A stretch of 64,000 nucleotides of DNA from Candidatus Accumulibacter jenkinsii. Lineage in GTDB: Bacteria > Pseudomonadota > Gammaproteobacteria > Burkholderiales > Rhodocyclaceae. Positions 1-51,806 of the stretch are shown in pieces; position 1 is the first letter of the stretch; every line of letters begins with the position of its first letter. The notes under the pieces were generated by a model. That model made no database searches and was not told the origin of the DNA. It worked only from the letters and a program-made list of their open reading frames with translations. The stretch is from NCBI GenBank assembly GCA_036625225.1, contig JAZKUF010000005.1, forward strand, positions 35,553 to 99,552. The letters run 5' to 3'. Made by a program: the position numbers and the translations under genes.

Positions 1-1117
1 AGGCATGGTGCCGATGAGGATCCTCATCGCCGAACCAGGGACATTGAATCTCGGCGAGTTTTACCAATCGTCCGGAGGCCTCAGGCGCCGGCTCGAGCTG
101 CTCGCCAACACGGCGGACCTGCTCGCGCGCCTTCACGCCGTGCCGCTGGTTTACGCCGACGTCTCGCCGAACAACGTGTTCATCTCGGATACGGCCGAGG
201 CGAGCGAGGTCTGGCTGATCGACCTCGATAATCTCGACTATCTCTCCGTGAACGCGCCCGGGATATTCACGCCTGGCTTCGGTGCGCCAGAGGTCGTGAC
301 GCGCCGCGCAGGGGTCTCGACCCTCTCCGACTCCTACTCCTTCGCCGTCCTCGCGTTCTGGGTCCTCACACAGCAGCACCCGTTTCTTGGCGACTACGTC
401 GAGGAGGGCGGATGGGATGACGACGGCGACCAGGATCGCGAGCAACTCGCGTTTCGCGGCGAGCTACCGTGGATCGAAGACAGCGCGGACGACTCCAACC
501 GCACTAATAAAGGGGTCGCGCGCCACCTCGTGCTCTCGATACCCCTTAAAGAGCTGTTCCAGCGAACCTTTGAAGCTGGTCGAAAAGATCGTCTGGCGCG
601 ACCGAGCATGGCCGAGTGGGCCGAGGCGCTCCGTTGTGCAGCCGATCGCGTCGTCTCTTGCAGGAGCTGCGACTCTTCGTTCGATGTGACCGCTCGCAAG
701 TGTCCGTTTTGCACGGCGAGTCCTAGCCCGTCGTTCATCCACATGCAGGTGAACCGTTGGGACCCCGAGTTCGACGACGCGGCCGGGGCATCTGCGGTCA
801 GCACCCGCGGCGCCGTCTGGCACAAGATGATCGACGTCATGAAGGACAGCGTTGTGCTCCGTCATGTTGTCGAGCCTGTTCTCGCAGACAGAGATGACGC
901 GCCGGTCCTCCGCGTGCGAGTCTTGCGGAGCGGCATCGCCATCGAAGCTCTAGCGAACCAAGAGGTCCACGTGGTCCTTGGAGGCCGCATGCTGCGCATG
1001 GGGGCCGAGATCAAACTGCCACTGCCCAAGGCTGGAAACGAAGCGATTCTTCACTTCGGCCCGCTGGACCGCCCCCACCGCATGGCTGTCCTCCGGCTCT
1101 ATGCGGAGGAAACGTGA
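1..1117 (+). CDS. Hanks-type Ser/Thr protein kinase-like protein, 5'-truncated by the window edge, with a C-terminal zinc ribbon and beta-rich tail
   Basis: ORF 5..1117 starts mid-kinase; no glycine loop or VAIK lysine is in the window. Catalytic-loop-like 'YADVSPNNVF', DFG-equivalent 'LIDLDNL', 'GFGAPE' (APE motif), then 4-Cys ribbon 'CRSCDSS...CPFC'. Stop overlaps the next start (GTGA, 1114-1117). Confidence 0.7.
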   Translation, partial: GMVPMRILIAEPGTLNLGEFYQSSGGLRRRLELLANTADLLARLHAVPLVYADVSPNNVFISDTAEASEVWLIDLDNLDYLSVNAPGIFTPGFGAPEVVTRRAGVSTLSDSYSFAVLAFWVLTQQHPFLGDYVEEGGWDDDGDQDREQLAFRGELPWIEDSADDSNRTNKGVARHLVLSIPLKELFQRTFEAGRKDRLARPSMAEWAEALRCAADRVVSCRSCDSSFDVTARKCPFCTASPSPSFIHMQVNRWDPEFDDAAGASAVSTRGAVWHKMIDVMKDSVVLRHVVEPVLADRDDAPVLRVRVLRSGIAIEALANQEVHVVLGGRMLRMGAEIKLPLPKAGNEAILHFGPLDRPHRMAVLRLYAEET

Positions 1118-4100
1118 AGATCGAACAGGTTCCCTACGGCCAGATTGAGAGCATTCGACTTAGGTGGACGTCGGCGAGTGGGACGCTTCCAAGCTCAGTC
1201 GTGCCTGGTGCCGAGGCGGTGCTTCAGTTCTCTGAGCGCGAGGCGCAGGTGACGCTTCGGATTGGTGGAGATGTCTTGGGCATTCAAGGCGATGGTCGAA
1301 AGCATGAGGTCCTGCTCGCCGACCTATGCACGCGGCACTTGCCTCGTCTGGCTTGGGTCGTCAATGCAGCAGCCCAAGTTATCACGTTGCAGGTCCACAC
1401 GTTCCTGCGAACCCTGACGCTGCCGCCGATTGAACTCGGCGTCGACGAGAAGGTGCTGGACGCGCTGGCGCGGATCGACCGTAGGCTCGCCTCGCCGGAG
1501 CGTGCGCTGCAATGGCTGGAGGAGCAGTTCCTGCTCGACGGAGAGAGCGGCAGGCGAGGGTTTGCGACGGCGGAGTCCAAAACCGGTGTCTTCGCGCTCT
1601 TTGGCCGGACGACGCGGGCGTTCATTCGGGGGGTGAAGCGCTCGGGCTCCACCGAGGGTCTGCTCGTCGATCGCGTCGCTCGCGGGCGCGGTCAGGGCGG
1701 AGAACAGCTCGCTCTGGTGTCGGGGGATGTACGGTTTATCGATGCAACTGTCGCGGGGGAGCTCCGCGCCGATGCAGCAGCTCAGCTTTCGTCTCTGGTC
1801 ACTGCTGGGTCGAGCTTCTTGGACCTGTGGAGCCGCTACGGAGCGATGGAGAACGAAGCGGCGTTGCGCAGGGCGCGGAGGGCTGGTTGGCTCAAGTACG
1901 AACACGTCGAGTCGCTCCCGGACGGACGGTATCGCTTCTCGCTCGCGAACGACTGCACCCTCGAGGATGCGGACCAGTTCAAGCGCACGCTCACCGAGGA
2001 GCAAGGGCTCGGCGTCGAAGCCGTCGGCGAGGTCCCCGAGGTGCTCACGCGCGAGATGTCGTGGGCCGAGTATGACCAGCCTCGCCCGAAGGACGCTCCG
2101 TCGCCTAGGACCTTCGACGGACACGTGGAACTCCACCGGCGAGATCGCACTATTACGCTGGTCCAGCGGCAGAGCGACGAGGGCACTCCGCCGGACACAG
2201 GGGCGCTGGTCGTCTCCCTGCATGGAGACAAAACGCGGCTGAAGCGCCGGTCTGAGGCCGAAAACGCCATCCGTGGAAACACCAACCCGATGCCCCAACT
2301 CCGATATCTGTTGGAAGGGCTGGAGGTTCCGGTCCCTCGCTGTGGCGACATCAAGCCCGTGACGCCCAACGTGAGGCGGAAGGTGTTCGGGACGCGCAGC
2401 CCCACGCCGACGCAGGAGAAGGCGCTTTGGGTTGCACTCAATACGCCGGACATCGCGCTAATCCAAGGCCCGCCGGGCACAGGAAAGACGACAGTCATTG
2501 TCGCCCTCGTTGAGCGGCTTCAAGAGGTCTGGGACACGCAGGACGGCGTCCAGGGCCGTCTACTGCTGAGCGGCTTCCAGCACGACGCTGTCGAGAACGC
2601 GATTCAGCGCATGAACGTGAACGGACTCCCTCCCATCAAGTTCGGCGGTCGAGCGAACAACGCCGAGGATGCGGACAGTGTCGACGTGACGATCGACAGG
2701 TGGTCCGGCGAACGCAGCGCGGAGATTCGCAAGAACCTCCCGCCACAGCCCGCTTCAGTTCTGAAGAAGGAGCTCTCCGAGCTGGTGCAGGGCTATTTTC
2801 TGGCGCCGGGCACGCTCGAACACACGGCGTCCTTGCTTCAAAGTGTCGCGACACGCGTCCATGGCGCGGTGCCCGCAGCGCTCGTCGACCGCATCGTCGC
2901 GCTTGCACGAGAGCTGTTCGAGCGTGCGCGAGCGGCACGCGGTGGAGACCCGGACCACGAGCGCCTCGTCCGCTGCGTGCGCGGTCTGCGCTGCGACGTG
3001 CGTTCCTTCGCCGATGATGGAGCACGAAATGCTGTCCGGCTCGATCGCGAGTTTGCCCGCTCAGGGCGTAGAGGCGAGCAAGCGAAGACGCTGCTCGAGA
3101 CTGCCTCGCGATGGAGCGGGACTGGGATCCCTCCGTTCCTCGACGACCTTCGCGTGCTTCGCCGACGGCTGTTGCTTGATCTACTCCCTCCTGATCGCAC
3201 CGAGGACACCATCCCGCGCGTTCGCACCGATGTCCTCGAGTTGCTGAGCGAGGTGCGTGATCACCTCGAGCAGTGTCAGAACACGACGCGAGACGCGGCA
3301 AACGAGGCGACGTGGAGGTTCCTCTCGGCGCTCGAAGGGGAGCCAGAGGCCGTCAAGTTCGCCGTCATCTCGTACACATCGGTGTTCGCTGCGACCTGCC
3401 AGCAGTCGGCAAGGCAGGAGCTTGCAACGCTCAAGGGCTCCGAGGGCTACGACACCGTCGTCGTGGATGAGGCCGCGCGCGCGATGCCGCTCGACCTTTT
3501 CATCCCAATGGCCCGCGCAAGGCGACGGATCGTGCTCGTAGGCGACCACCGTCAGCTCCCTCACATTCTCGACCAAGAGCTTGAGCGCGAACTCGAGGAG
3601 GCGCTGTCAGATGGCAAAAGCGCGGGAGAACGCACGGGCGAAATGCTGAAAGAGAGCCTCTTCGAGCGACTCTTCAAGGATCTCGGGGATCGAGAGAAGC
3701 GCGACAGAATCCCTCGCGTGGTCACCCTCGACGAGCAGTACCGCATGCACCCGGTGCTGGGGCAGTTCGTCAGCGACCAGTTCTACAAACCGCACGGCGA
3801 GGCCTTCAGGTCGCCCCTTCCTGCTTCGAACTTCGTTCACTCGCTGCCCGGCCATGGCGGACCGGCATCGTGGCTCAATGTGCCGCACAAACTTGGCCCT
3901 GAGCGTAATGGACAAAGCAAGTCGCGTCCTGTCGAGGCGCAGGCTATCGTTGCAGAGTTGAAGCGGCTCATGGATTCGACGGAGGGCCGCGAACTTACCT
4001 TCGGCGTGATCTCCTTCTACAAGCAGCAGGTCAAGGTGATCGAGGATGCGCTCGTGGAAGCCGGGATCGTCGCTCGAACGGACGAGACGACGGAGATCGT

Positions 4101-4410
4101 TGTCCCCTACCGGGAGTTGCCGTTCCCCAATGGTCGCGTCGCGGAGCGCCTCCGGTTCGGCACCGTCGACGCTTTCCAGGGCATGGAGTTCGATGTCGTG
4201 TTCCTCTCGATGGTCCGCAGCAATCCCCGCAGGGTCTTCGGGCACGTCACCTCTCCGAACCGTCTCTGCGTGGCGATGAGCCGTCAGAAGCGGCTCCTGA
4301 TCGTTGCAGGCGACGACGGCATGCTCCGCGCGGACAATGCGCCGAAGGCGATCAGCCCCCTGGTCGAGTTCTACAAGTTGAGCGAGGTGCGCGATGCCGC
4401 CCGTGTTTGA
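1114..4410 (+). CDS. Superfamily-1 helicase, Upf1/Dna2-like (AAA_11/AAA_12 layout), with an unassigned ~450-aa N-terminal region
   Basis: Walker A 'GPPGTGKT', Walker B 'VVVDEAARA', 'GDHRQLPH', 'LDEQYRMH', 'GTVDAFQGMEFDVVFLS', 'VAMSRQKRLLIV'. GTG start overlaps the kinase stop. The 3' end overlaps the next gene by 17 nt. Confidence 0.85.
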   Translation: MKIEQVPYGQIESIRLRWTSASGTLPSSVVPGAEAVLQFSEREAQVTLRIGGDVLGIQGDGRKHEVLLADLCTRHLPRLAWVVNAAAQVITLQVHTFLRTLTLPPIELGVDEKVLDALARIDRRLASPERALQWLEEQFLLDGESGRRGFATAESKTGVFALFGRTTRAFIRGVKRSGSTEGLLVDRVARGRGQGGEQLALVSGDVRFIDATVAGELRADAAAQLSSLVTAGSSFLDLWSRYGAMENEAALRRARRAGWLKYEHVESLPDGRYRFSLANDCTLEDADQFKRTLTEEQGLGVEAVGEVPEVLTREMSWAEYDQPRPKDAPSPRTFDGHVELHRRDRTITLVQRQSDEGTPPDTGALVVSLHGDKTRLKRRSEAENAIRGNTNPMPQLRYLLEGLEVPVPRCGDIKPVTPNVRRKVFGTRSPTPTQEKALWVALNTPDIALIQGPPGTGKTTVIVALVERLQEVWDTQDGVQGRLLLSGFQHDAVENAIQRMNVNGLPPIKFGGRANNAEDADSVDVTIDRWSGERSAEIRKNLPPQPASVLKKELSELVQGYFLAPGTLEHTASLLQSVATRVHGAVPAALVDRIVALARELFERARAARGGDPDHERLVRCVRGLRCDVRSFADDGARNAVRLDREFARSGRRGEQAKTLLETASRWSGTGIPPFLDDLRVLRRRLLLDLLPPDRTEDTIPRVRTDVLELLSEVRDHLEQCQNTTRDAANEATWRFLSALEGEPEAVKFAVISYTSVFAATCQQSARQELATLKGSEGYDTVVVDEAARAMPLDLFIPMARARRRIVLVGDHRQLPHILDQELERELEEALSDGKSAGERTGEMLKESLFERLFKDLGDREKRDRIPRVVTLDEQYRMHPVLGQFVSDQFYKPHGEAFRSPLPASNFVHSLPGHGGPASWLNVPHKLGPERNGQSKSRPVEAQAIVAELKRLMDSTEGRELTFGVISFYKQQVKVIEDALVEAGIVARTDETTEIVVPYRELPFPNGRVAERLRFGTVDAFQGMEFDVVFLSMVRSNPRRVFGHVTSPNRLCVAMSRQKRLLIVAGDDGMLRADNAPKAISPLVEFYKLSEVRDAARV

Positions 4411-6619
4411 TCGCACGACGCCGGTCGTGGATTTCGGCGCCACGTCGTTGCCGTTCAAGCGCGGGGCTCGTCGATGGCTGGTGTGGCCCGCGCTCGCGTA
4501 CAAGGTCCTTCTTCCGTCTCGGGGCAACCCGCCGTTCAACGTACTTCAGCGCGCCGCGCTCGACATGTGTCGAGCGGGGGTCCGGGACGCCGAGGAGATC
4601 TCGCGCCGCCTCTCGCTCCATTTGGACTTGGTCGCTTTCGTGATCGAGCAACTCGTCACCATCGGCATGCTCGATGAGGCGCGCGTACCGACGCACCGGG
4701 CGCTGCGCCTGATGAACGAGGAGGACGAACCCAGTGAGTTGGAGGACGCCGGCTACGTCTTCGTCGATGTGGTTGATGGGAGACGCGTCTGGCCGCGCGT
4801 CCACCGAGGAGGCCTACCAATCGTCGAGGCTGAGTTCGAGCAGTCCAAGGCCAAGTTCCAGCGGGGCACCCTGGGCCACCCGGAGGATGTCTTCGCCAAC
4901 GTAGTGTGGCCAGAAACCGGGGCACGGTCTATCGCGCCGAGCGCGTACGAGGCGCAGAAGTCTGCCCGACATCACGCTCGCCGATTGCGCGCCTTCCGAC
5001 GTGAGGTCTCTCCCGGCGGAGGCTCCGGGGGAGCCCTAGATACTCTCAAGGCTGGAGGGCTACGTGTCGTCGATGTGGAGCCGGAGCCCATTTTCGTGGC
5101 GGCCTGTGTGTTTCTGCCGAAGGATGTGCGGCAGCGCTCCTGGTTGATCACGGATCCCTTGGGGCTCGGTGTCAGCGACGTGCTTCGGGCCGGGGTGACC
5201 AAGCTCGCCAAGGAAGGGAAGTACGGCCTCGCGGAGTTGCTGAAAAAGGTCGCAGGCGACGCTTGGCACGTCGATGAGGGAGATCTCGCACTGTACTTGG
5301 CTGAGGCTAAGCAAGCCGCTACCGAGCGCGTCGCCCGTCGCCTCGGCGAGGCCGCGAGGCTGCTCCCCCCCGATGCACTGGCACGTCTCGCCGATGCCGA
5401 CGTGCGCCTCGAAGGAGTGCAGACGGCCAAGCCAATCGAAGACTTCCTCGGCAATGCGTACGCGGCCCTTGAGAGCGTATTTGGCTGGCTGGTGTCGCTC
5501 TTCCCGGACCCGAGCCTCTTCTCAGTGCTAGGTAACAACGCGCCCGAGAACGCGACGCTACTCCGACGAATCGCTGATCAGGTCGGCTTCGCTGCCTCAC
5601 AGCGCATACTGCCTCTCCTGAGCGTCACCCGTGGCATCGTGAAGGGGGCGATCTGTTTCGGCAACAAGACCTTCCCGGGCCGACTGGCTGCGACGCTGCT
5701 GGCGGCGCAGCGCAACGGAGACCACCCGCTCGCCACTTTGGCCGCGCGCGAGCCCGACGCGCTGGAGTTCTTCGCTGAGATGGGAAAGCGCAGAATCGAC
5801 GCCTCGCACGACACCTCGGCGGTCCCGAGCGTCGAGATCGCGGTCGAGATGAAGGACCGCTTGTTCGCGGTCCTACGGGCGCTGGTTGGTGCTGGTCCAG
5901 TGGACGTGGAGACCGACGCACAGGCGCCATCATGGGGGGGCGACCTGCTTCTGCGCGTCCGAGCGCGGGCTGAACAGGCCTCCGAGGGGTATCCAGGGCT
6001 CGTTGAACGTCCCGATCTGCGTGCGCGCGTGATCGAAATGCACCACGCAGCGCTGCTCGTGAAGTTGCTCGCAGGGTCCGCAGCCACGTCCTCGGAAAAG
6101 TTGCTCGCAGGGTCCGCAGCCACGTCCTCGGAAACCTTGAGTACGCGGGCTCGCGACGCTGTTGTGGCTCTCACCATCGCGATGGAGGCGACCTTCGCAG
6201 CGATCGAAGCAGAGGCTTCGACGCCATCCGAGGTCGCGCAGACGATCTCGGATGACCGGGAGCGAAACGCGACGCTCCTAGCGTCTGCGGCCGTCGCGGT
6301 CGGCTTCGAGGTCGAAACGTCGGGGCAACTCCCCAAGGCTCTTACCCACGCAAAAGCTAACCGTATGCGGCGGGCTGCGCAGGGTCAGAGGGAGACGTTG
6401 TCGGCGCGCGTTGCTGTCCAGTTGTTTGCAGCGCACATGAAGGCAGACCATCCGCTCCGCGAGGTCGCGAAGCGGCTTCCCTCCTTGCTTCGGGACGTGG
6501 GTCGCATCGTCGATGCCCGCGGGCATGGAGATGATGTCGTCGTCACGGCATCCGAAGTCGCCGAGATCGAGACGATGGTTGCAAACGACATTCGGACGAT
6601 GCTCGAAGCGATTGATTAA
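4394..6619 (+). CDS. Hypothetical protein with N-terminal wHTH-like segment and two HEPN-like R-x4-6-H helices (candidate RNase)
   Basis: 'EMGKRRIDASHDTSAVPSVEIAVEMKDRLFAVLRAL' (codons at 5789-5809) and C-terminal 'DVGRIVDARGHGDDVVVTASEVAEIETMVANDIRTMLEAI' (6503-6526) look like two copies of one helix-motif-helix unit. N-terminal 'NVLQRAALDMCRAGVRDAEEISRRLSLHLDLVAFVIEQL' looks wHTH-like. Translationally coupled on both sides. Confidence 0.55.
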   Translation: MPPVFDRTTPVVDFGATSLPFKRGARRWLVWPALAYKVLLPSRGNPPFNVLQRAALDMCRAGVRDAEEISRRLSLHLDLVAFVIEQLVTIGMLDEARVPTHRALRLMNEEDEPSELEDAGYVFVDVVDGRRVWPRVHRGGLPIVEAEFEQSKAKFQRGTLGHPEDVFANVVWPETGARSIAPSAYEAQKSARHHARRLRAFRREVSPGGGSGGALDTLKAGGLRVVDVEPEPIFVAACVFLPKDVRQRSWLITDPLGLGVSDVLRAGVTKLAKEGKYGLAELLKKVAGDAWHVDEGDLALYLAEAKQAATERVARRLGEAARLLPPDALARLADADVRLEGVQTAKPIEDFLGNAYAALESVFGWLVSLFPDPSLFSVLGNNAPENATLLRRIADQVGFAASQRILPLLSVTRGIVKGAICFGNKTFPGRLAATLLAAQRNGDHPLATLAAREPDALEFFAEMGKRRIDASHDTSAVPSVEIAVEMKDRLFAVLRALVGAGPVDVETDAQAPSWGGDLLLRVRARAEQASEGYPGLVERPDLRARVIEMHHAALLVKLLAGSAATSSEKLLAGSAATSSETLSTRARDAVVALTIAMEATFAAIEAEASTPSEVAQTISDDRERNATLLASAAVAVGFEVETSGQLPKALTHAKANRMRRAAQGQRETLSARVAVQLFAAHMKADHPLREVAKRLPSLLRDVGRIVDARGHGDDVVVTASEVAEIETMVANDIRTMLEAID
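6062..6133 (+). repeat. Perfect 36-bp tandem duplication (2 copies) inside the CDS
   Basis: 'aagttgctcgcagggtccgcagccacgtcctcggaa' occurs at 6062-6097 and again at 6098-6133, encoding KLLAGSAATSSE twice, in frame. Confidence 0.95.
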
Positions 6620-6635
6620 GGAGAAATCGAAGACC

Positions 6636-9071
6636 ATGAGCGGCCTATACGAAGGAACCACCACTGCCGGAGCCAATACAAAGGGCGCTAATACTGCGCT
6701 CGACGTCAACGCGGCGGTTCGCGTCAAGCAACTCGACGCGCGTGAGCAGTCCTTGACTGCAAGGGAGCACACGCTAAAGGAGCTCGAGCGACAGATCAAG
6801 GACCAGGCTACCTCACTTAAGGAACGTGAGGCGGAGGTCGAGGCTGCGGAGTCGAAGACCCAGCGCGACCTCGCCGATCTCGCGAAACGCCAGAAGCAGG
6901 TGGCAGAGACCGAGAGCTCCATTGAGGCGCGCGCTCGTGACTTGGCTCAGCGTGAGATCGAGGCGAGCGAAGGATTCGCCTCCAAGAACCGTGAAGCGCT
7001 CACCGCGCTCACGAAGACTCACGCGTCATTGCGCGCCCAGTCGGAGCGTCTGCAGTCCGAGTTGGATGCCGCCCGGATAAAGGGCATCGAAGACCTCGAG
7101 AAGCGGCTCGCCGATGAGCGACGAACCCGCACCGAGGCTCTCGACGCTGATATTCAAGCGGATCGCAAGCGTCACATCGCAAAGCTCGCTGCCGAGGGCG
7201 CAACGCAGGATGTGGCGCTTGCTGAACAGAGGGCGCGCTTCGCCAAGGAGCAGCAGACCGCGCTTGAGGAGATCGAGCGAGAGCGCGTTCGTCTTGCTGA
7301 CCTGGAGGCCGAGCTTCGCCACAGGCTCGGCGACCTGCGCTGGAAGGAGGAGGACCTCGCGGGGTACCGCTCTGGCATCGACCGGTCCATTGAGGAGCGG
7401 TCTCGCGACCAAGTGGCGTCGTTGGAGCGCCAGTTGGACGCGCTGCGCGAGGACCACAGACGGGACCGTGACCTGGTCATCTCGCTCGAGTCTCAGTTGG
7501 CAGCGTCGCGCGACCTCCTGACCCGATTCGGAGACGACCCCGCCGAGATCGAGAAGCGCATCGCGCAGCAGGCGAAGAAGATCAGCGACCTTGAAAAGGA
7601 GCTGCTCCGTCGTCCAAGCGCAACCGACAAGGAACTCTTGGTCACCCTGCAAGAGCAGGAGCGTGTCTGGGCGGCTGAACGAGACCGGTTGGTTCGTGAG
7701 ATCACACAGCTCAAGGCTGAGCAGAGCCGCTGGCTGACCGGTGTCGCCGACCTCGAGCAGCAACGGGAACGACGCGAGGTGGCAGAGCGTCGGATCGAGG
7801 TGCTTGCTGGAGAGATGGAAAAGTACAGGGCGGACGTCGACCGGATGCGTGCGCTATATCAGAGCCCCGCAGAGCGGGCGGCACTGGTCGGGCGCATCGA
7901 GGATCCGTGGCGTACTGATTTCAAACGAGCCAAGGGCAGCACGCCGAGGGAACTCGACTGGCTCAACGATATCGTGGCCAAGTGCGAATACAGCGGCATG
8001 CGTTTCCCGAAGCGCCTGGTTCACGCTTTCCATACGTCGCTGAAGGCCGCAGAGCTATCACCACTGACACCACTGACGGTGCTCGCCGGCGTGAGCGGCA
8101 CCGGAAAGTCGGAACTTCCTCGCCTTTACTCGCGTTTCGGTGGGCTTGGGTTCCTCTCACTCGCCGTCCAACCAAACTGGGACGGCCCGCAGTCGCTGTT
8201 CGGTTTCTTCAACTCGATCGACAACCAATTCAACGCAACAACGGTCCTGCGCGCGATGGTGCAGGCGCAGCATGACCCTGACCACGAGACCTACAAACAC
8301 GGGCTCTCGGACCGCCTCCTGTTGGTTTTGCTCGACGAGATGAATCTCGCTCACGTTGAGCAGTACTTCAGTGACCTCCTTAGCCGCCTCGAGCAGCGTC
8401 GTGGGGAGAGCCGAGACGTCACGCTCGATATCGACCTCGGTTCCAGAGAGCCGCCGTACCAGTTGCGCCTTGGTCGGAATGTGCTCTGGGTGGGCACGAT
8501 GAACGAGGACGAGACGACGAAGGCTCTCTCCGACAAGGTCATCGATCGCTCGAACCTGTTGTACTTTCCGCGTCCGCGCGAGCTTCACAGTCGTACGGAG
8601 GTTACCCTCGGTGCGGAGTCGCCGTTGCTGGCGGAGAGTGCGTGGCGCGAGTGGCTGCAGCTTCGGTCGCCGTTCACCTCGGACGAGCTCAAGCCCTTCA
8701 AGGATGGGCTTCAGGAGATCAACTCGCGGCTGGAATACGTCGGCCGCGCCCTCGGACACCGCGTCTGGCAGTCGGTTGAGTTCTACATAGCCAACCACCC
8801 CGAAGTGATCGACGCACGCGCGCGGAAGGACGAGGACGCGCTCCAGCGCGAGATGCGACGTGCCTACGAGGATCAGCTCGTCCTCAAGGTGATGCCGAAG
8901 CTTCGTGGCATCGAAACCTCCGGCAAGTCGAGAAACGAGACCCTCGATCCGATCAAGAAGCAGCTCGCCGAGTTTGGCACAGGCTTGTCCAAGGACTTCG
9001 ACATCGCGTGCCGCGTTGGACATGGTGCGTTCCTCTGGAACAGCGCGACGTACCTGGAGAACGCTGAATGA
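6636..9071 (+). CDS. Coiled-coil / McrB-family AAA+ GTPase fusion
   Basis: ATG at 6636 follows 'aaggag'. About 430 aa are E/R/L/A/Q-rich coiled coil ('LKELERQIKDQATSLKEREAEVEAAESK...'). Then McrB-type core: 'LAGVSGTGKSELPRLY', 'LLVLLDEMNLAHVEQYFSDLLS', 'VGTMNEDETTKALSDKVIDRSNLLYF'. Stop overlaps the next start (ATGA, 9068-9071). Confidence 0.8.
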   Translation: MSGLYEGTTTAGANTKGANTALDVNAAVRVKQLDAREQSLTAREHTLKELERQIKDQATSLKEREAEVEAAESKTQRDLADLAKRQKQVAETESSIEARARDLAQREIEASEGFASKNREALTALTKTHASLRAQSERLQSELDAARIKGIEDLEKRLADERRTRTEALDADIQADRKRHIAKLAAEGATQDVALAEQRARFAKEQQTALEEIERERVRLADLEAELRHRLGDLRWKEEDLAGYRSGIDRSIEERSRDQVASLERQLDALREDHRRDRDLVISLESQLAASRDLLTRFGDDPAEIEKRIAQQAKKISDLEKELLRRPSATDKELLVTLQEQERVWAAERDRLVREITQLKAEQSRWLTGVADLEQQRERREVAERRIEVLAGEMEKYRADVDRMRALYQSPAERAALVGRIEDPWRTDFKRAKGSTPRELDWLNDIVAKCEYSGMRFPKRLVHAFHTSLKAAELSPLTPLTVLAGVSGTGKSELPRLYSRFGGLGFLSLAVQPNWDGPQSLFGFFNSIDNQFNATTVLRAMVQAQHDPDHETYKHGLSDRLLLVLLDEMNLAHVEQYFSDLLSRLEQRRGESRDVTLDIDLGSREPPYQLRLGRNVLWVGTMNEDETTKALSDKVIDRSNLLYFPRPRELHSRTEVTLGAESPLLAESAWREWLQLRSPFTSDELKPFKDGLQEINSRLEYVGRALGHRVWQSVEFYIANHPEVIDARARKDEDALQREMRRAYEDQLVLKVMPKLRGIETSGKSRNETLDPIKKQLAEFGTGLSKDFDIACRVGHGAFLWNSATYLENAE

Positions 9072-12000
9072 AGAAGGTTCGCGCAGCCCGCGACCGCGCT
9101 GCTCCCAAGACGGCGGGGCCGCCGCCGCTCCCGGAGCTCGACGGATTGGACGCCCTTGCGGCGTCCGACGCGCCGACCGTGACGGCGGCTTGGTGGATAT
9201 CCCTTCAGGTTTCGGAGCACGTCTTCTCAATGATCGCGCACGGCGATCCGCGCACTGGCGAACCCCTTTCGAGACCTCTAACGGAGATCCTTCGCGACGT
9301 TCGCCACGCGACCGCGACCGGAAGTCGACCGTTTCCCAGCGATCGCCTCCTCGGCGCCGCCGAGTTCGCCATCGACTCCCTGGAATACCTGCTCGACCGG
9401 CATCGACATCGAATCGTCAGGGTCCACCAGCAACTCCCGTTCCATCAGCTTCGCGAGGTCGACACGCGATCGATGGCGTGGCTCGCACGACAGCCCGGAA
9501 GGAACATCCGCGAGAAGCTCTCGGGCCGCACCCATGCGTTGGGCGCAAAGCGCGACGTGTCCGTCGACACGACCGAAAACCGGCTCCTCCGGTCGTTCGC
9601 CAAGCTCCTCGTTCAGCGCGCCAGCAATCGCCTGGAGAACAGGGACGCCTACGACGGCACGACCGAGGATGAAGAGCGCATACGTCGGCTGGAGGAGTGC
9701 GTTCGCCTCTGCGATGAGCGGATGAGACGGTCCGAGCTCGCCGATGTTCCGACGCTGACCCGACTGCAGCCGAACAATGTTCTATTGAATGACCCGCACT
9801 ACTCGCGGGTGTTTCGCGCATGGAAGTGGCTGCGCGATGGTGAGGAAGCCTTGCGTGGCTCTTGGAAGGATGTCCTCCAGCGTACCCGCGTCCTTCTTTA
9901 TTGGATGACGGCGGCACAACTTGTGACACGTGAGCGAGTGGTGGTCGCGGAGACGTTCGGGCGCGTCCTCACGGGGCGGGGCGATGAGCGACACATCGGC
10001 ATCGAGGTGCTTGGTGCCGAGGCGGTTGGTGCGAACTGGTTCTTGAACCCACCGCTTCACTTCTTGGTGCTGCCCACCGGGGGCAACAATGCGGTGTTCC
10101 GTATCCGCGTCGCGCTCGAGGGCGAGTACATCCTCGTACACGTCGCTTCGCTGGGCGGGAGAGGGCTCCTTGTTGATGAGTCGGTCGCTACGCTTGCCTT
10201 TGAGGTGCGGCCCACTTCGGAGCGTCTCCTGCCTCAGCGCGGGATTGGGATCGCCGTGGATGGCCTCGAGGTCTCAGTTCGAGGGACGGACCGCGGCTAC
10301 GCCGACCTCGCGGGGCTGACGCCCCTCGCAACGCAGGTGGCTCTGCAGATCCTCGAGCGTTGCGGCGGGAACCCCAATAACGAGCGCCAGGAGCACACCT
10401 CTGCTGAAGTGGGAGACGGCGCGCGCATCGGCATCGAGATTGGCACCGCGTCGCTGCATGTCGGCGCGCAACATAAACTGCCGCTGGTGTCGGCACCGTG
10501 GGCATTGGCTCTCGACCTGCCGGGGGACACGGGCGGCATCGAGTGGCTTGAAGGCCGTTCAGAACGAGAGATGGTCCTTGGTGCTGCCGGTCGGTCGCTG
10601 TGGAGCACCGGCGACATCTTGGATACGGACGGGAAGGCCGACGCAGGGATGGTTGCCTTGGCAGCGGACCGCCTGCTGGGTAGCCTTGCGTCTGAGCTAC
10701 AGATACCGACCGACGCACGGGTCGCCTATGCCGTCCCCGATGCAGTCGATGAATTCTCGCAGCGCAGCCTGCGGAGCGCGTTCGGGGGGGCGTTCCATCG
10801 GCCGGTTCCGGTGTGGAGAAGCGTTGCGGCCGCGATGTCCTGGGCGTCGGAGGCGGGGAAGCGCGGCCCGCGCTCAGGAGAGTCGGTGGTCGTCGTCGAC
10901 ACGGAGTTTAGTGGCGTCTCGCTGACAGTGCTCACCGCCTGCCACGACAAGAAGCTCGAGCAGGCACATCCGTCGTCACGCGGAATCTACTGGGAACGCA
11001 AGCCGCCACTTCCGCCCGACGAGCAGTTGGAGACGCTCGGTTGGCCGCGTGTACTTGGCTCCTACGCGCGGATGTTGGTGGAGCGTGAGCTGAGTTCGCA
11101 GGCTCCCGAGGTCCAAGAGCGCGTTGTCGAGGATCTCCTTCGCAGTGGCAAGATCGGTGCTCTCGTAGCGCGCGGCGGGTCGATCTTCGTGCAGGTGCCG
11201 TCGAGCCAGAGAACGATGCCCGACGTCGTGGAATTCTTTGAAGACCCCGCGTGGTTCGACGACGAGGTGGCGGGCTGGGGCCAACGACTGGATCAGAGCC
11301 TGCAGAACACGCTTGCACAACTCGACGGCCATCGGGTGCTGCTCATCGGTGGCCCCTGCTCCTACAGCCGGTTTCACCGCGGAACGCACTCCGGACAAAT
11401 CAAGACGTTCGATGTGGCCAAGGGGTTCGGCTTACTCACACTAGATGCGATCGGCGTAGACGTCTTCTTTCACATCAATACGACTCGTGTTCCTCGTAAT
11501 GTCACCCTAGTCCCCAGGCTTGCAGTTGAGTGCGACTTTGCAAGGGGGAAGAAGGGGCTGGAAGCTCGACAAGTCGCTCCTGTGCAGCAAGGCAAGTCGC
11601 GGCCGCACGTTCCATCGCTCGCGATATGGTTGCTACGGCGCACCTTCGTCATGCCTCAGGACTTGGCGCGTGGAGCCCATGAGTGCTTGCTCCGAATGGA
11701 CACCGGCTCGCCGACTTGGCGTGAGTGGCTGCCCGAGCTGTCGCTGGAGGTCGTACGCGACGGGCACTTCGGCGAACTCCCCCTACTCGAGCGAGGCACG
11801 TTCGTCGACCCATTCCTCGGCGACGCCGTGCAATTCACAGTGCCGGAACACCTCACGCTGGGACGCGGACATCGTTGGTTCTCTTTCCCGTTGCTCGTTG
11901 GTCGCCAGGGACGCCGCCCTGTCGCGTGGGAGGCGCGGTTGGACTCGCCCGCGTTCCCCCTCGACCACGACGTCCGGGCGCGGCTGCGGCTGTCATACCG

Positions 12001-13111
12001 GTACGGACTCGACAATAGCTATGAGCTCACCGTGGAGCCTGCGTTGCCGCATGATGCTCCATTCGCCAGAGTGGAAGCCAAGTGGATCAAGGGCGGCGAG
12101 ATCGCCACCGCGTTGGTGGCGCGGGAGCCGTTGCCGCTCGAACGTAGGCCGTGGGATCGCGTGGGCACGGAGTCCTTCCTTAATGCCGCACGCTCCCTTC
12201 ACCTGCATGATGAACGCAATGCGAAGCGCCTCTTCGCGCTGACGCGCGCATGCTGGTCGGAGGGGCGAAGCCTCGCAACAGCGCCAGCGGACGTGCACCG
12301 AATGTTCGACGGCTTCCGCGACCAATTGCTGAATGCGCTTCCGCCGAAGCTGAGCGTTCATGACATGCCACGTGCGCTCGAAATCCTCTCGTTGCTTCAC
12401 GAGGACGCTCCGACTGAAGTCATCGGCTGGCTGCTCGAACTCGATGCGCCGGCTGGTGATGGGCGGATACCGGTGCCCCTTTATCGGAAGACGGCAGGCA
12501 TGCTCGCCATGGTTGTCGGAGATGGTCAGGGTGAGCGTGTGGCTGTGCTTAACCGATTGCTCGATCATCTCCAGCGGCACGGCCACAGCAACACTTTCGA
12601 CCCGCAGTTGACTGGTATCACCATGAGGGCGCTGGGCAACGCAGCGTGGAGACATCCAGGCTTCATCGGCTCACTGGCCTCCACACAGGACGGCGCCGCG
12701 CTCGTCATCGCTTCGTGTCGACGCTCGCTGAATGGTCTTCTTGCACGCATTCCAGTTAAGGTTTCGTCCGATGAGGAGCGCCAGAAGATCTCGCGGCTTT
12801 ACGGCACGCAGTTCCGGGATGCCTGTGAGTTGCTGCTGGTGCTGATGGCCGTCGCCCCATCGGCCCCAGTGGTTGCGCCGCTACGCGCCGGCTCTCCATC
12901 AGCCGACGGTTTCGCGAAAGTTGTTCGGCAGATAGACGCTCGGCTTTCCGCCCTTGAGGCCTTGCCCTCCTGGCGAGTACGCCTCGATGTGAATGTGCCA
13001 CCAGCGCTTCATCGGATGTCGGCAGTAACATTCGCTCTGAATACGTACCTTGTCGAGGGCTCGGGTGCGAATTTGGTACAGGTTGCTGGTGCTGAATTCG
13101 ACGTCAGTTGA
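9068..13111 (+). CDS. 1347-aa fusion: McrC-N/DUF2357-like region, degenerate Hsp70/actin-like ATPase fold, cold-shock domain, ~550-aa helical C-terminal region; no PD-(D/E)xK motif seen
   Basis: 'DVSVDTTENRLLRSFAKLLV' (McrC/DUF2357-type DTxENR motif). Hsp70-like 'RIGIEIGTASLHVG', 'AYAVPDAVDEFSQRSL...VWRSVAAAMSW', 'VVVVDTEFSGVSLTVL', 'VLLIGGPCSY'. CSD 'GQIKTFDVAKGFGLLTLDAIGVDVFFHINT' (RNP1/RNP2-like). Confidence 0.7.
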   Translation: MKKVRAARDRAAPKTAGPPPLPELDGLDALAASDAPTVTAAWWISLQVSEHVFSMIAHGDPRTGEPLSRPLTEILRDVRHATATGSRPFPSDRLLGAAEFAIDSLEYLLDRHRHRIVRVHQQLPFHQLREVDTRSMAWLARQPGRNIREKLSGRTHALGAKRDVSVDTTENRLLRSFAKLLVQRASNRLENRDAYDGTTEDEERIRRLEECVRLCDERMRRSELADVPTLTRLQPNNVLLNDPHYSRVFRAWKWLRDGEEALRGSWKDVLQRTRVLLYWMTAAQLVTRERVVVAETFGRVLTGRGDERHIGIEVLGAEAVGANWFLNPPLHFLVLPTGGNNAVFRIRVALEGEYILVHVASLGGRGLLVDESVATLAFEVRPTSERLLPQRGIGIAVDGLEVSVRGTDRGYADLAGLTPLATQVALQILERCGGNPNNERQEHTSAEVGDGARIGIEIGTASLHVGAQHKLPLVSAPWALALDLPGDTGGIEWLEGRSEREMVLGAAGRSLWSTGDILDTDGKADAGMVALAADRLLGSLASELQIPTDARVAYAVPDAVDEFSQRSLRSAFGGAFHRPVPVWRSVAAAMSWASEAGKRGPRSGESVVVVDTEFSGVSLTVLTACHDKKLEQAHPSSRGIYWERKPPLPPDEQLETLGWPRVLGSYARMLVERELSSQAPEVQERVVEDLLRSGKIGALVARGGSIFVQVPSSQRTMPDVVEFFEDPAWFDDEVAGWGQRLDQSLQNTLAQLDGHRVLLIGGPCSYSRFHRGTHSGQIKTFDVAKGFGLLTLDAIGVDVFFHINTTRVPRNVTLVPRLAVECDFARGKKGLEARQVAPVQQGKSRPHVPSLAIWLLRRTFVMPQDLARGAHECLLRMDTGSPTWREWLPELSLEVVRDGHFGELPLLERGTFVDPFLGDAVQFTVPEHLTLGRGHRWFSFPLLVGRQGRRPVAWEARLDSPAFPLDHDVRARLRLSYRYGLDNSYELTVEPALPHDAPFARVEAKWIKGGEIATALVAREPLPLERRPWDRVGTESFLNAARSLHLHDERNAKRLFALTRACWSEGRSLATAPADVHRMFDGFRDQLLNALPPKLSVHDMPRALEILSLLHEDAPTEVIGWLLELDAPAGDGRIPVPLYRKTAGMLAMVVGDGQGERVAVLNRLLDHLQRHGHSNTFDPQLTGITMRALGNAAWRHPGFIGSLASTQDGAALVIASCRRSLNGLLARIPVKVSSDEERQKISRLYGTQFRDACELLLVLMAVAPSAPVVAPLRAGSPSADGFAKVVRQIDARLSALEALPSWRVRLDVNVPPALHRMSAVTFALNTYLVEGSGANLVQVAGAEFDVS

Positions 13112-13583
13112 TTGCCAAATATCTGCCGTTCAGTTGGCATTTGCCTTGTGACTGCAAAGGCCGAACAGCGACGCCGTCGTCCGAGCCTCGTGGTCGGCAG
13201 GTATGTTATCAGAAAGCGGCCCTTGCTCATCAAAACATCATCAGGCCGTTTTGGTCGTTAGCAGAATTTCAAGGTGCCCGGTAGCCGCCGGCGACGTGAA
13301 TGTTTCGGTGATCCACCAGGCCTATGGAAGTTCGGTAGCGTTATGCGGGCCAGCCGCGCGCGAGTGGCTCCGAGCGGGGGGCACCAGGCGCACCTGGGGT
13401 TCCGGCCTGACGGAACCTGTCTCGACGTCAAACAGATCAGCCCGTGAAACAAGCGCAGGGCTTTTGCCATCAGCGTAACAAACTGTTTTATTGAGTCTTT
13501 TAGCTATTTTAAAAAATTGTTTCACGGCCCAGCGGCGTTCCAGAGGGCGAGAGCAGAAAATTCCCCTCCTCTGCCGCTTCACA

Positions 13584-13607
13584 TAGTCATTATGGGGATA
13601 ATGACTA
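13584..13607. promoter_or_regulatory. Perfect 10-bp-arm palindrome (candidate operator), conserved in the duplicated copy at 44690-44715
   Basis: TAGTCATTAT-gggg-ATAATGACTA. The partner copy is CCAGTCATTA-tttttc-TAATGACTGG. Arm core AGTCATTA/TAATGACT is conserved while the spacer differs. Confidence 0.35.
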
Positions 13608-13811
13608 AAAGTTGCGGCGAAGCGTTATATTTAAAACGTTAAACGTTCGTTAATAGACGATATTTCAGGTTCGTGGGGGGTGCCCTTGAGGATGGCGGGG
13701 TTGGTCTTTGCTTGGTGAGCCCTGTCATCAATAGCAGGCGCCCCAGTCGCCGCTATCAACAAGTTGTATTGGCGGTTTGCCTCTCCCGCAGCCATATTGA
13801 GATAAAGGTTT

Positions 13812-13840
13812 TTGAGCTTTGAAGTCCTGTCACCCAGATT
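13812..13840 (+). promoter_or_regulatory. Candidate sigma-70 promoter of the PON-like gene
   Basis: TTGAGC, a 17-nt spacer, then CAGATT, about 60 nt upstream of the ATG at 13899. It lies in the best-conserved 40-mer shared with the inverted copy (44221-44260) and overlaps the hairpin CCTGTC-N10-GACAGG. Confidence 0.3.
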
Positions 13841-13898
13841 CGACAGGGCCTGAAGCACGGCGGGGACGGTGGTCCAAAGCCACGGCGAAGGGGAAGAG

Positions 13899-14979
13899 CA
13901 TGCAAATACTGAGCGTCAGGGGAGCCGCTGCGCCGGCAACCTCTCCCACCTCTTGGCCCAAAAATCTCGCCATTCCCGGTCCGGAGGACTTTGTCATCGA
14001 CCGGGCGGCCCACATTGCCTATCTCTCTTCACAGGACCGTAGCGGCTCCGAAGCGGTGATGGGTGGTCTGCTGCGTATGAAAGCAAACCGATGGGAGGTG
14101 CGCGGCAGCATCTACCAGATGGACCTGAACGACCCTGACCTGTCACTTTGGCAACTGGCCGACGACTTTCCCAAGAACAAGGGTTTCCATCCGGTGGGAA
14201 TGGATCTGCACGTCAATCCCGATGGAAGCCGACGTTTGTTCATTGTGAACTGGCCTGGCCCCAACCAGTACGCCGTCGAAATTTTCGACCTCGAGACCAA
14301 CAGACTGCGGCATGTGCGCACGGTCGCGGGCAAGGCGCTGACCTGTCCGAACGACATTGCAGCCGTCGATGGCGAGCGCTTCTATGTCTCCAACTCGTTG
14401 TCTCTGCATCCCTCCCTGCAGCAGATGGAACAGCTGCTCGGTCTACCGACGGGTACGGTCGTTTACCACGATCCGGACGAAGCGGAACTACAGGTCGTGG
14501 CGACCGGCATCACCTACGCTAATGGCATCGCACTTGACCGGCGCAGGGGCAGGATTTACGTCGCATCCTTCACAAACGGTCGCATTCTCGAGTTTTTCTG
14601 GGATCCACTCCAGCCAACCGCCCCCTTGCGGCGATGCAGCGCACTTACGTTGGATTTCTTGCCCGACAACCTGGTCTGGGAAGACGAGAACACTCTTTGG
14701 GTAGCCGGTAGCCAGTTCTTAAGTGGCCTGTTCTTCATGCTCCAGTTGAGTGATCGCGCCCCCTCGTATGTCGCCAGAATTGCGCTTGCCAGCCCGGACC
14801 TGGTCGATCAGGAGCCCCTCAGTCGTGCGCGGCCAGAGATGATGTACCGCGATGATGGCGGCGAGATCCCGGCCTGCAGCGTCGCGGCCCCCTACGAATT
14901 GAACGGCGAGCGCCGGCTGATTATCGGTTCCTGCTTTGCCGATCACGCGCTCGTCTCCCTTACCTCGCCGGCTCCTTGA
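13899..14979 (+). CDS. Paraoxonase/arylesterase-like (PON/SGL six-bladed beta-propeller) hydrolase, possible lactonase
   Basis: 'FHPVGMDLHVNPDGSRRLFIVNWP...AVEIFDLETNRLRHVRTVAGKALTCPNDIAAVDGERFYVSN' parallels the PON1 core 'FNPHGISTF...LLVVNHP...VELFKF...LNDIVAVGPEHFYGTN'. ATG at 13899 follows 'aagggga'. Confidence 0.7.
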
Positions 14980-15026
14980 TCCGCCCTCTGAAGCGACGGA
15001 AAGATAGCATGGACTTGCAAGCGAGG

Positions 15027-51768: not shown

Positions 51769-51806
51769 GGAAAGCGCTCACCGGGTGGAAAACATGCAGG
51801 GATCGT

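What the first reader, a model, noticed from the sequence alone, without database searches (positions are those of the whole stretch)
1..13111. Five-gene coupled operon: kinase / Upf1-like helicase / tandem-HEPN-like protein / coiled-coil-McrB GTPase / giant McrC-N-Hsp70-CSD fusion, a candidate McrBC-derived RNA-targeting immunity system
Seen in sequence: five co-directional ORFs with overlapping or abutting stops and starts (GTGA 1114-1117; 17-nt overlap 4394-4410; 16-nt gap 6620-6635; ATGA 9068-9071). The first ORF is cut by the window edge, so the operon continues to the left. Domain content by motif: Hanks kinase C-lobe plus Zn ribbon; SF1 Upf1/Dna2-like helicase; a protein with two R-x4-6-H helices; ~430 aa of coiled coil fused to a McrB-type AAA+ core; and a 1347-aa protein combining a McrC/DUF2357-type 'DTxENR' region, an Hsp70/actin-like fold and a cold-shock domain. 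Established knowledge: McrB-McrC pairs are GTP-driven restriction motors. Coiled-coil McrB + McrC + Upf1-like helicase + HEPN, Hsp70-like and OB-fold RNA-binding domains was described computationally as the 'CoCoNuT' (coiled-coil nuclease tandem) branch of McrBC systems. As far as I recall none has been studied experimentally, and that recollection needs checking. Inference: this is a defence or abortive-infection system whose effector acts on RNA (CSD, HEPN-like, Upf1-like) rather than on modified DNA, with kinase-based signalling on top. The particular fusion and gene order may be a new subtype.
Basis: partly seen in the sequence, partly recalled or inferred. Interest (0 to 1): 0.9.

Follow-up and report, generated by a model that had tools for sequence, protein, structure and literature searches.

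The report
Type III-A CoCoNuT defence operon

Summary
Five co-directional, translationally coupled ORFs lie at the stated coordinates, and the first is cut by the window edge.

Every domain call was recovered except the HEPN fold, which is only partly supported:
- a kinase C-lobe plus CxxC…CxxC zinc ribbon
- an Upf1/SMUBP-2-like SF1 helicase
- a wHTH protein with two homologous all-alpha domains carrying conserved RxxxxH and RxH motifs
- a coiled-coil McrB-like GTPase with the NxD signature
- a DUF2357–Hsp70(NBD/SBD)–CSD–helical-repeat giant

This matches, gene for gene, the Type III-A CoCoNuT with a TerY-P module described by Bell et al. (eLife 2024). It is not a new subtype.

In 48 related loci the order is invariant wherever the flanks allow: RtcR-like activator, VWA, PP2C, kinase, CnuH, CnuE, CnuB, CnuC(D). 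PP2C and VWA genes therefore very probably lie just left of the window.

The window comes from a Candidatus Accumulibacter sp. UW20 MAG.

A 2026 preprint shows a Type II CoCoNuT ("Obs") protecting Pseudomonas aeruginosa against RNA phages. Type III-A itself remains untested.

Verdict: real, a new member of a known kind, of moderate interest.

The parts
2..1117 (+). 3' part (371 codons) of the TerY-P serine/threonine kinase with a C-terminal zinc ribbon (CRSC aa 220, CPFC aa 234). About 119 N-terminal codons lie left of the window.
   Evidence: Pkinase E=3.9e-8, matching profile positions 105-209 only. PADLOC PD-T4-6, MAD6 and MkoA kinase hits. Orthologues are 489-490 aa.
1114..4410 (+). CnuH, an Upf1-like SF1 helicase of 1098 aa. 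Walker A is at aa 452 and Walker B at aa 785, so a large insertion lies between them. An uncharacterised region of about 430 aa sits at the N-terminus; the family paper assigns it SmpB-like OB and RelE-like domains.
   Evidence: AAA_11 1e-30 and AAA_12 2.5e-36. PDB SMUBP-2 5e-23, plus Nam7/Upf1 and Sen1. PADLOC MkoA 1.3e-89. The N-terminal domains were not tested; there was no sequence hit.
4394..6619 (+). CnuE, the putative effector (741 aa). It has an N-terminal beta/wHTH module followed by two homologous all-alpha domains, with RxxxxH (R467-H472, nt 5792-5809) and RxH (R709-H711, nt 6518-6526).
   Evidence: AF2 pLDDT 83. wHTH matched by Foldseek to MarR/MntR at prob 0.95-0.99, and by PF24409 in 31 of 35 homologues. 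R467, H472 and R709 are invariant. hhalign of domain 1 against domain 2 gives prob 98%, E=2.4e-13, with the motifs aligned. HEPN_MAE_28990 was hit in 3 of 65 remote relatives.
6065..6136 (+). In-frame 36-bp tandem duplication inside cnuE (LLAGSAATSSEK/T x2). It lies in a low-confidence loop between the two R..H domains and is absent from the 728-729 aa orthologues.
   Evidence: 34 of 36 nt are identical between the copies. pLDDT is below 50 at aa 562-574.
6636..9071 (+). CnuB: a helical/coiled-coil region of about 430 aa fused to a McrB-like AAA+ GTPase. Walker A is GVSGTGKS (aa 485) and Walker B is DEMN (aa 567). The NxD signature N623-E-D625-E is at nt 8502-8510.
   Evidence: The profile's only PDB hit is T. 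gammatolerans McrB 6UT3, E=3.9e-4 (single sequence). The motifs are invariant in 10 orthologues. PADLOC PDC-M26A 4e-29. SMC/Rad50 coiled-coil arm hits. Residues 30-430 are 74% EKRQDAL and 3.5% P/G.
9068..13111 (+). CnuCD (1347 aa). Domains are DUF2357 / McrC N-terminal (aa 107-252, with DTTENR at 167), a beta-rich domain, an Hsp70-like NBD, a CSD (aa 775-837, nt 11390-11578), an Hsp70 SBD-like beta domain, and about 300 aa of helical repeats. No nuclease domain was detected.
   Evidence: DUF2357 4e-12 and CSD 2.4e-7. CSD in PDB 3.5e-11. AF2 model of aa 261-1347 has pLDDT 85.9 and pTM 0.79. Foldseek finds DnaK, BiP and Hsp110 full-length at E down to 4.4e-11, prob 1.0, over 640-800 aligned columns.

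Best explanation
This is the 3' five-sevenths of a Type III-A CoCoNuT (coiled-coil nuclease tandem) operon with its TerY-P module, in a Candidatus Accumulibacter MAG.

Shown here: the domain architectures, the catalytic-type motifs, the translational coupling, and strict collinearity of VWA-PP2C-STK-CnuH-CnuE-CnuB-CnuCD across distant bacteria.

Inferred mechanism, from homology and from Bell et al. 2024:
1. An upstream RtcR-like CARF/sigma-54 activator, present in the relatives that resolve that region, and the VWA/PP2C/kinase phospho-switch control expression and licensing.
2. CnuH, an Upf1-like 5'-3' RNA helicase, loads on phage or aberrant RNA. It works with CnuE, whose wHTH docks on the helicase and whose two HEPN-like R..H domains form the RNase.
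3. CnuB forms a GTP-driven McrB-type ring on long coiled-coil stalks. The DUF2357 domain of CnuCD inserts into that ring to stimulate GTPase activity.
4. CnuCD carries no nuclease. It contributes RNA- or ribosome-binding modules instead (Hsp70-like NBD/SBD, CSD, helical repeats). The McrBC half therefore acts as a target-recognition and motor scaffold that brings the CnuH/CnuE RNase to its substrate.
5. The outcome is degradation of phage RNA, or abortive infection if the signal persists.
For: Architecture:
- All five proteins match the published Type III-A description feature by feature (against the paper text).
- NxD rather than NxxD is present and invariant.
- RxxxxH followed by a C-terminal RxH is conserved in a family of 584 50%-identity clusters. 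There the H of RxxxxH is the only invariant column among 65 divergent members.
- The two R..H domains are paralogous and the motifs align.
- CnuCD has an Hsp70 NBD+SBD fold and no nuclease hit.

Context:
- VWA, PP2C, STK, CnuH, CnuE, CnuB and CnuC(D) keep the same order and strand in 48 loci wherever the flank allows. An RtcR-like activator lies upstream in the loci where it was detected.
- In relatives the operon abuts recombinase, Prim-Pol and RadC mobile-element genes.
- The kinase is 82-89% identical across Myxococcota and Alpha- and Betaproteobacteria, which indicates horizontal transfer.

Function by analogy:
- A Type II CoCoNuT protects against RNA phages.
- STK plus CnuH hit the Mokosh MkoA model at 1.3e-89. 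Mokosh needs its helicase ATPase and its nuclease to defend.
Against: - There are no experimental data for any Type III-A system.
- The HEPN fold was not recovered for this protein by Foldseek against PDB, by Pfam or by a PDB profile. Only 3 of 65 distant relatives touch a Pfam HEPN family, best E=8.5e-4.
- The SmpB-like and RelE-like domains of CnuH were not tested.
- The coiled coil is supported only by composition and SMC-arm hits.
- The upstream genes of this very genome could not be retrieved.
- Type II Obs also restricts a DNA phage, so exclusive RNA targeting is not established.
Confidence: 0.85

Rival explanations
1. Two independent defence systems sit side by side. One is a Mokosh-type-I-like cassette (kinase + Upf1-like helicase + nuclease gene) and the other is a degenerate, nuclease-less McrBC pair. 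They have no functional coupling.
For: PADLOC MkoA matches both the kinase and CnuH. Mokosh works alone as a two-gene system. Locus L006 keeps STK/CnuH at 85% identity, but CnuB is 68% and CnuCD 42%, which shows the two halves can be exchanged.
Against: All loci with enough flank keep both halves contiguous, on the same strand and in the same order. The stop/start overlaps or a 16-nt gap link the two halves. A CnuCD without a nuclease has no obvious output of its own. In Obs, transposon hits in both obsC and obsG/cnuC abolished the phenotype.
Confidence: 0.08
2. It is a conventional Type IV (McrBC-like) restriction system that recognises and cuts modified phage DNA.
For: There is a McrB-like GTPase and a DUF2357 partner. 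The related Type II Obs blocks one DNA phage. Upf1/DNA2-family helicases can act on ssDNA.
Against: CnuCD has no PD-(D/E)xK or other DNase domain. CnuB carries a coiled coil instead of a DNA-reader domain, and NxD instead of NxxD. The accessory domains (CSD, Hsp70-like, R..H) point to RNA.
Confidence: 0.05
3. It is a housekeeping or stress RNA quality-control module for ribosome rescue or RNA repair, regulated by RtcR, and not an immune system.
For: RtcR-like activators lie upstream in relatives. The locus has Hsp70-like, CSD and Upf1-like domains, and the paper proposes a link to tmRNA/SmpB.
Against: The distribution is patchy, with near-identical copies in different phyla. The locus sits next to recombinases and mobile-element genes. 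It hits anti-phage candidate models in PADLOC. A Type II relative has a phage-protection phenotype.
Confidence: 0.05

Closest known systems
Type III-A CoCoNuT with TerY-P (Bell, Sahakyan, Makarova, Wolf, Koonin, eLife 2024; PMC11090510)
   Same: The gene order STK-ZnR, CnuH, CnuE, CnuB, CnuCD is the same. So are the NxD GTPase on a coiled coil, the DUF2357-Hsp70 NBD/SBD-CSD-helical repeat fusion without a nuclease, the Upf1-like helicase with a large insertion after Walker A, the wHTH plus two R..H domains (RxxxxH then RxH), the overlapping reading frames, and the single CSD typical of the variant without CARF nucleases.
   Different: Nothing architectural differs. This copy has a 12-aa in-frame duplication in CnuE. 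The VWA, PP2C and RtcR-like genes are outside the window and could not be retrieved for this genome. The host, Ca. Accumulibacter, was not found in the part of the paper's supplement that is held, which is truncated.
Type II CoCoNuT 'Obs' of Pseudomonas aeruginosa PMM16 (bioRxiv 10.64898/2026.04.06.716636)
   Same: It is a seven-gene operon (obsA to obsG/cnuC) that its authors report as strongly homologous to Type II CoCoNuTs. That type shares the TerY-P, CnuH, CnuE, CnuB and CnuC gene set with this locus. [quoted passage not shown]
   Different: According to the family paper, Type II CnuC keeps an inactivated PD-(D/E)xK, a beta-sandwich and a Zn ribbon, has no Hsp70 or CSD, and its CnuE has one HEPN domain. 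Here CnuCD is an Hsp70-CSD fusion and CnuE has two R..H domains.
Mokosh type I (MkoA STK + Upf1-like helicase; MkoB PLD nuclease; Millman et al. 2022)
   Same: The kinase and CnuH both hit the PADLOC MkoA model (kinase E=3e-4, helicase E=1.3e-89). In both systems a helicase gene is followed by a nuclease gene.
   Different: Here the kinase and helicase are separate genes. The effector is a HEPN-like wHTH protein, not PLD. The cassette is welded to a McrB/McrC-derived pair.
Canonical McrBC (E. coli McrBC; T. gammatolerans McrB, PDB 6UT3)
   Same: It has the AAA+ GTPase core with Walker A, Walker B and the N..D signature, and a DUF2357-type partner.
   Different: The signature is NxD, not NxxD. 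A coiled coil replaces the DNA-reader domain. The partner lacks the PD-(D/E)xK nuclease.

Membership tests
Type III-A CoCoNuT | CnuB: McrB-like GTPase with the shortened NxD signature, usually followed by E or D | tested here: met
   GTMN623-E-D625-E is invariant in 10 orthologues. It aligns to the NTAD of T. gammatolerans McrB. McrB is the only PDB hit of the profile, E=3.9e-4.
Type III-A CoCoNuT | CnuB: long N-terminal coiled coil | tested here: met
   Residues 30-430 are 74% E/K/R/Q/D/A/L and 3.5% P/G. They match SMC/Rad50 arm models at 6e-6 to 2e-4. No dedicated coiled-coil predictor was run.
Type III-A CoCoNuT | CnuC: N-terminal DUF2357 (McrC N-terminal) domain | tested here: met
   PF09823 E=4e-12, aa 107-252, above the gathering score.
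Type III-A CoCoNuT | CnuCD: PD-(D/E)xK nuclease lost and replaced by an Hsp70-like NBD/SBD | tested here: met
   The AF2 model has pLDDT 85.9. Foldseek finds full-length DnaK/BiP/Hsp110 at E down to 4.4e-11, prob 1.0. No nuclease family appears in Pfam or the PDB profile.
Type III-A CoCoNuT | CnuCD: cold-shock domain located outside DUF2357 | tested here: met
   CSD at aa 775-837: Pfam 2.4e-7 and PDB Csp 3.5e-11.
Type III-A CoCoNuT | CnuCD: C-terminal HEAT-like helical repeats | tested here: inconclusive
   The model shows about 300 aa of stacked helices, aa ~1030-1330. No HEAT protein appeared among the 50 listed Foldseek hits.
Type III-A CoCoNuT | CnuH: UPF1-like SF1 helicase with a large helical insertion after Walker A | tested here: met
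   SMUBP-2, Nam7/Upf1 and Sen1 are the best PDB matches. The AAA_11 match spans aa 433-816 for a 257-position profile. Walker A is at 452 and Walker B at 785.
Type III-A CoCoNuT | CnuH: N-terminal SmpB-like OB fold and RelE-like (RTL) domain | not tested
The sequence search of aa 2-430 against PDB found nothing.
Type III-A CoCoNuT | CnuE: elongated wHTH followed by two HEPN domains, the first with RxxxxH and the C-terminal one with RxH | tested here: inconclusive
   Met: wHTH, invariant R467/H472 and R709 with near-invariant H711, and two paralogous domains with aligned motifs. Not shown: the HEPN fold, with no Foldseek, Pfam or PDB hit for this protein. Only 3 of 65 remote relatives hit HEPN_MAE_28990.
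Type III-A CoCoNuT | TerY-P triad (VWA, PP2C, STK-Zn ribbon) upstream; frequent but not core | tested here: inconclusive
   STK-ZnR is present but cut by the window edge. VWA and PP2C precede the kinase in nearly every related locus with flank. The left flank of this genome was not retrievable.
Canonical McrBC Type IV restriction | NxxD GTPase signature, an N-terminal DNA-reader domain on McrB, and a PD-(D/E)xK nuclease on McrC | tested here: not met
   The signature is NxD. The N-terminus is a coiled coil. No nuclease is present in CnuCD.
Mokosh type I | MkoA: STK fused to an Upf1-like helicase | tested here: inconclusive
   Both parts hit PADLOC MkoA, the helicase at 1.3e-89 and the kinase at 3e-4. 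They are separate genes overlapping by GTGA.
Mokosh type I | MkoB: PLD-family nuclease | tested here: not met
   There is no PLD hit in any of the five proteins. The gene after the helicase is the wHTH/R..H protein.

The most novel reading that the evidence does not exclude
A McrB-type GTPase ring has been repurposed from DNA restriction to RNA- or ribosome-directed immunity. CnuB/CnuCD would use Hsp70-like, CSD and helical-repeat modules to find stalled or phage-programmed translation complexes. It would then deliver a Mokosh-like, kinase-licensed Upf1-helicase/HEPN RNase. On this reading, Type II/III CoCoNuTs are chimeras of a Mokosh-type cassette and a nuclease-less McrBC. The original CoCoNuT paper does not mention Mokosh.
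Probability: 0.4. Interest if true: 0.65.

Novelty: new member of a known kind. Interest (0 to 1): 0.33.

Why it matters
CoCoNuTs are among the most elaborate predicted defence systems, and their mechanism is unknown. The only phenotype reported so far is for a Type II system.

This locus adds an intact, compact Type III-A copy from a wastewater phosphorus-removing bacterium. Its close relatives in culturable hosts (Rhodopila globiformis DSM 161, Myxococcus qinghaiensis, Azospirillum sp.) could be cloned for testing.

It does not change what is known about the family. Its value is as a confirmed, well-annotated example, with clear catalytic residues to mutate. It also makes the Mokosh-CnuH link explicit.

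Tried and rejected
Retrieving the left flank of this genome failed:
- Exact-protein look-ups of CnuCD, P0001 and P0066 found no contig on record.
- An exact 40-mer scan of metagenome contigs found nothing.
- The protein-based metagenome scan found only relatives of 89% identity or less.

Showing the HEPN fold directly also failed:
- Foldseek of the full CnuE model against PDB gave only wHTH matches and spurious helical membrane proteins.
- Pfam on 35 homologues gave no HEPN family.
- The PDB sequence profile gave nothing.
- Indirect support came only from motif conservation, the internal duplication and 3 weak Pfam HEPN hits in remote relatives.

Other dead ends:
- I tried to check whether relatives are listed in the paper's Supplementary file 3, but the stored copy is truncated before the Type III-A sheet.
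- The CnuH N-terminus against PDB sequences gave nothing.
- A crude heptad score for CnuB was uninformative.

A functional link to the adjacent contractile injection system locus was considered and rejected. Relatives have unrelated mobile-element genes downstream of CnuCD instead.
Full report
**Observation.**
The first 13.1 kb of the window carry five co-directional ORFs at the reported coordinates. The junctions are as described:
- GTGA at 1114-1117, behind a GGAGGA Shine-Dalgarno.
- A 17-nt overlap at 4394-4410.
- A 16-nt gap with AAGGAG before ATG 6636.
- ATGA at 9068-9071.

ORF1 has no upstream stop. It matches only the C-lobe half of the Pkinase profile, positions 105-209 of 263. Orthologues are 489-490 aa, so about 119 codons lie left of the window. 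G+C falls from about 0.64 to about 0.59 just after the last stop.

**Domain content, gene by gene.**

1. ORF1 is a protein-kinase C-lobe (Pfam 3.9e-8) followed by CRSC…CPFC.

2. ORF2 is an SF1 helicase.
   - Pfam gives AAA_11 at 1e-30 and AAA_12 at 2.5e-36.
   - Its best solved relatives are SMUBP-2, Nam7/Upf1 and Sen1.
   - Walker A (aa 452) and Walker B (aa 785) are 333 residues apart.
   - PADLOC assigns it to Mokosh MkoA at 1.3e-89, and the kinase hits the same model.

3. ORF3 has no significant Pfam, NCBIfam or PADLOC family, only a sub-threshold wHTH-PRTase_assc hit.
   - An AlphaFold model built on 35 homologues (pLDDT 83) shows an N-terminal beta/wHTH module. Foldseek matches it to MarR/MntR at prob 0.95-0.99, and PF24409 hits 31 of 35 homologues.
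   - The C-terminal half is all-alpha.
   - R467 and H472 (RxxxxH) and R709 are invariant, and H711 is nearly so.
   - A profile of the C-terminal half finds 584 clusters at 50% identity. Among 65 divergent members, the only invariant column is the H of RxxxxH, and RxH is again conserved.
   - hhalign of residues 335-505 against 575-741 gives 98% probability, E=2.4e-13. It aligns RRIDASH with AR---GH, so the protein carries a tandem duplication of one R..H domain.
   - The HEPN fold was not recovered directly. The only link is three weak HEPN_MAE_28990 hits among remote relatives.

4. ORF4 starts with about 430 residues that are 74% E/K/R/Q/D/A/L. They match SMC/Rad50 arms.
   - An AAA+ core follows, and its profile hits only T. 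gammatolerans McrB in the PDB (3.9e-4).
   - Walker A, Walker B and the signature GTMNEDE are invariant.
   - The signature is NxD-E, not NxxD.

5. ORF5 has DUF2357 (4e-12) and a CSD (2.4e-7; PDB 3.5e-11).
   - A model of residues 261-1347 (pLDDT 85.9, pTM 0.79) matches full-length DnaK, BiP and Hsp110 over 640-800 columns at E down to 4.4e-11.
   - It ends in about 300 residues of helical repeats.
   - No nuclease domain was found.

**What it is.**
These features coincide point by point with the Type III-A CoCoNuT of Bell et al. (PMC11090510):
- a TerY-P STK with a Zn ribbon
- CnuH, a UPF1-like helicase with an insertion after Walker A
- CnuE, a wHTH plus two HEPN domains, RxxxxH then RxH
- CnuB, a coiled coil fused to an NxD McrB GTPase
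- CnuCD, DUF2357 fused to Hsp70 NBD/SBD, CSD and HEAT-like repeats, with the PD-(D/E)xK lost
- overlapping reading frames

The single CSD fits the paper's variant without CARF-nuclease extensions.

**Source and relatives.**
The window is from a Candidatus Accumulibacter sp. UW20 MAG. Proteins P0001 and P0066 are 100% identical to the window's products and come from a contig of 256,858 bp.

Scans of species-representative genomes and metagenomes with the kinase gave 48 loci. In every locus with enough flank, VWA, PP2C, STK, CnuH, CnuE, CnuB and CnuC(D) keep the same order on one strand. An RtcR-like match lies upstream in most loci that reach that far. Gene calls on relatives' contigs agree.

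PP2C and VWA genes, and probably a sigma-54 activator, are therefore expected just left of the window. This genome's own flank could not be retrieved.

The kinase is 82-89% identical in Myxococcota and in Alpha- and Betaproteobacteria. Relatives have serine recombinase, Prim-Pol and RadC genes just downstream. Both observations fit horizontal spread on mobile islands.

**How it probably works.**
Only the anatomy is shown here. The mechanism is inferred.

The kinase/phosphatase/VWA triad and the RtcR-like activator would set expression or licensing. CnuH would translocate on RNA and present it to CnuE's paired R..H sites.

CnuB would form a GTPase ring on coiled-coil stalks, activated by the DUF2357 of CnuCD. 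CnuCD's Hsp70-like, CSD and helical modules would then recognise RNA or ribosome-associated targets in place of the lost nuclease.

Two experimentally tested systems support parts of this model:
- Mokosh type I (STK-helicase plus a nuclease) needs helicase ATP binding and the nuclease active site.
- The seven-gene Type II CoCoNuT 'Obs' protects P. aeruginosa from ssRNA phages PP7 and LeviOr01 and from DNA phage MPK7. Transposon hits in obsC and obsG/cnuC abolish the phenotype.

No study of a Type III-A system was found.

**Rivals.**
- Two unrelated neighbouring systems. This is contradicted by the invariant linkage and coupling, although L006 shows that the halves can recombine.
- A classical DNA-cutting McrBC. 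There is no nuclease, no reader domain, and the signature is NxD.
- A housekeeping RNA-quality-control module. This is contradicted by the patchy, horizontally transferred, island-borne distribution.

**Novelty and score.**
The suggestion of a new subtype is not, and the statement that no CoCoNuT has been tested is out of date.

This is a new member of a known, computationally described kind. Interest is moderate to low for the locus itself. The family remains mechanistically open, and the Mokosh-CnuH homology seen here is not discussed in the CoCoNuT paper.

Noticed in passing
window 15417-42346: A complete extracellular contractile injection system (eCIS/Pvc-like) locus lies here. It has a WHD-AAA+ ATPase, Pvc16_N, sheath, gp19-like and CIS tube proteins, a Phage_base_V spike, two Baseplate_J genes, Tail_P2_I, a 1037-aa NHL/propeller protein and a 1144-aa eCIS_core (DUF4157) protein. 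A 1086-aa ORF at 21758-25018 has no Pfam hit. Relatives of the CoCoNuT operon do not have this neighbour.
   Followed up: partly
window 26158-28014: A DDE_Tnp_1 transposase ORF (618 aa) lies inside the eCIS locus, between the tube genes and the spike gene. It may be an IS insertion splitting the operon.
   Followed up: no
window 47927-52564: A cluster of mobile-element genes: an IS66-family transposase (-), a DUF4158 Tn3-type transposase N-terminal fragment (-) and a resolvase (+).
   Followed up: no
window 55603-57078 (-): A full-length sigma-54 (rpoN) gene lies about 42 kb from the operon. Relatives of the operon are preceded by an RtcR-like sigma-54-dependent activator. This is probably just the host rpoN.
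   Followed up: no
window 6065-6136: A 36-bp in-frame tandem duplication in cnuE (34 of 36 nt identical) adds 12 aa in a disordered linker. Orthologues are 728-729 aa.
   Followed up: yes
L006 (uncultured Myxococcales MAG) 10001-21104: This is a mosaic operon. STK and CnuH are 85% identical to the window, but CnuE is 70%, CnuB 68% and CnuCD only 42%. This suggests recombination between the helicase half and the McrBC half.
   Followed up: no
L001-L011, L016-L020: The kinase is 79-89% identical at the amino-acid level across Sandaracinaceae/Myxococcus, Rhodopila/Azospirillum (Alphaproteobacteria) and Betaproteobacteria. This indicates recent cross-phylum horizontal transfer of the whole operon.
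   Followed up: partly
L007 7-5787: Upstream of the RtcR-like gene in a Betaproteobacteria MAG lie an SNF2-family helicase (870 aa) and a 1052-aa Sacsin/HATPase-like protein on the same strand. This may be an ancillary restriction module of the kind the CoCoNuT paper describes in superoperons.
   Followed up: no
L049 14394-22511; L050 21238-22405: Immediately downstream of CnuCD, relatives carry a large serine recombinase, Transposase_31, Prim-Pol and AAA_25 (L049) or DUF5983 and RadC (L050). This points to carriage on integrative mobile elements.
   Followed up: no
window 13112-15260: G+C drops from about 0.64 to about 0.59 right after the operon, and a weak terminator-like hairpin lies at 13124-13139. 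The spacer holds a 91-aa ORF with no hits and an arylesterase/SGL beta-propeller gene at 13819-14979.
   Followed up: no
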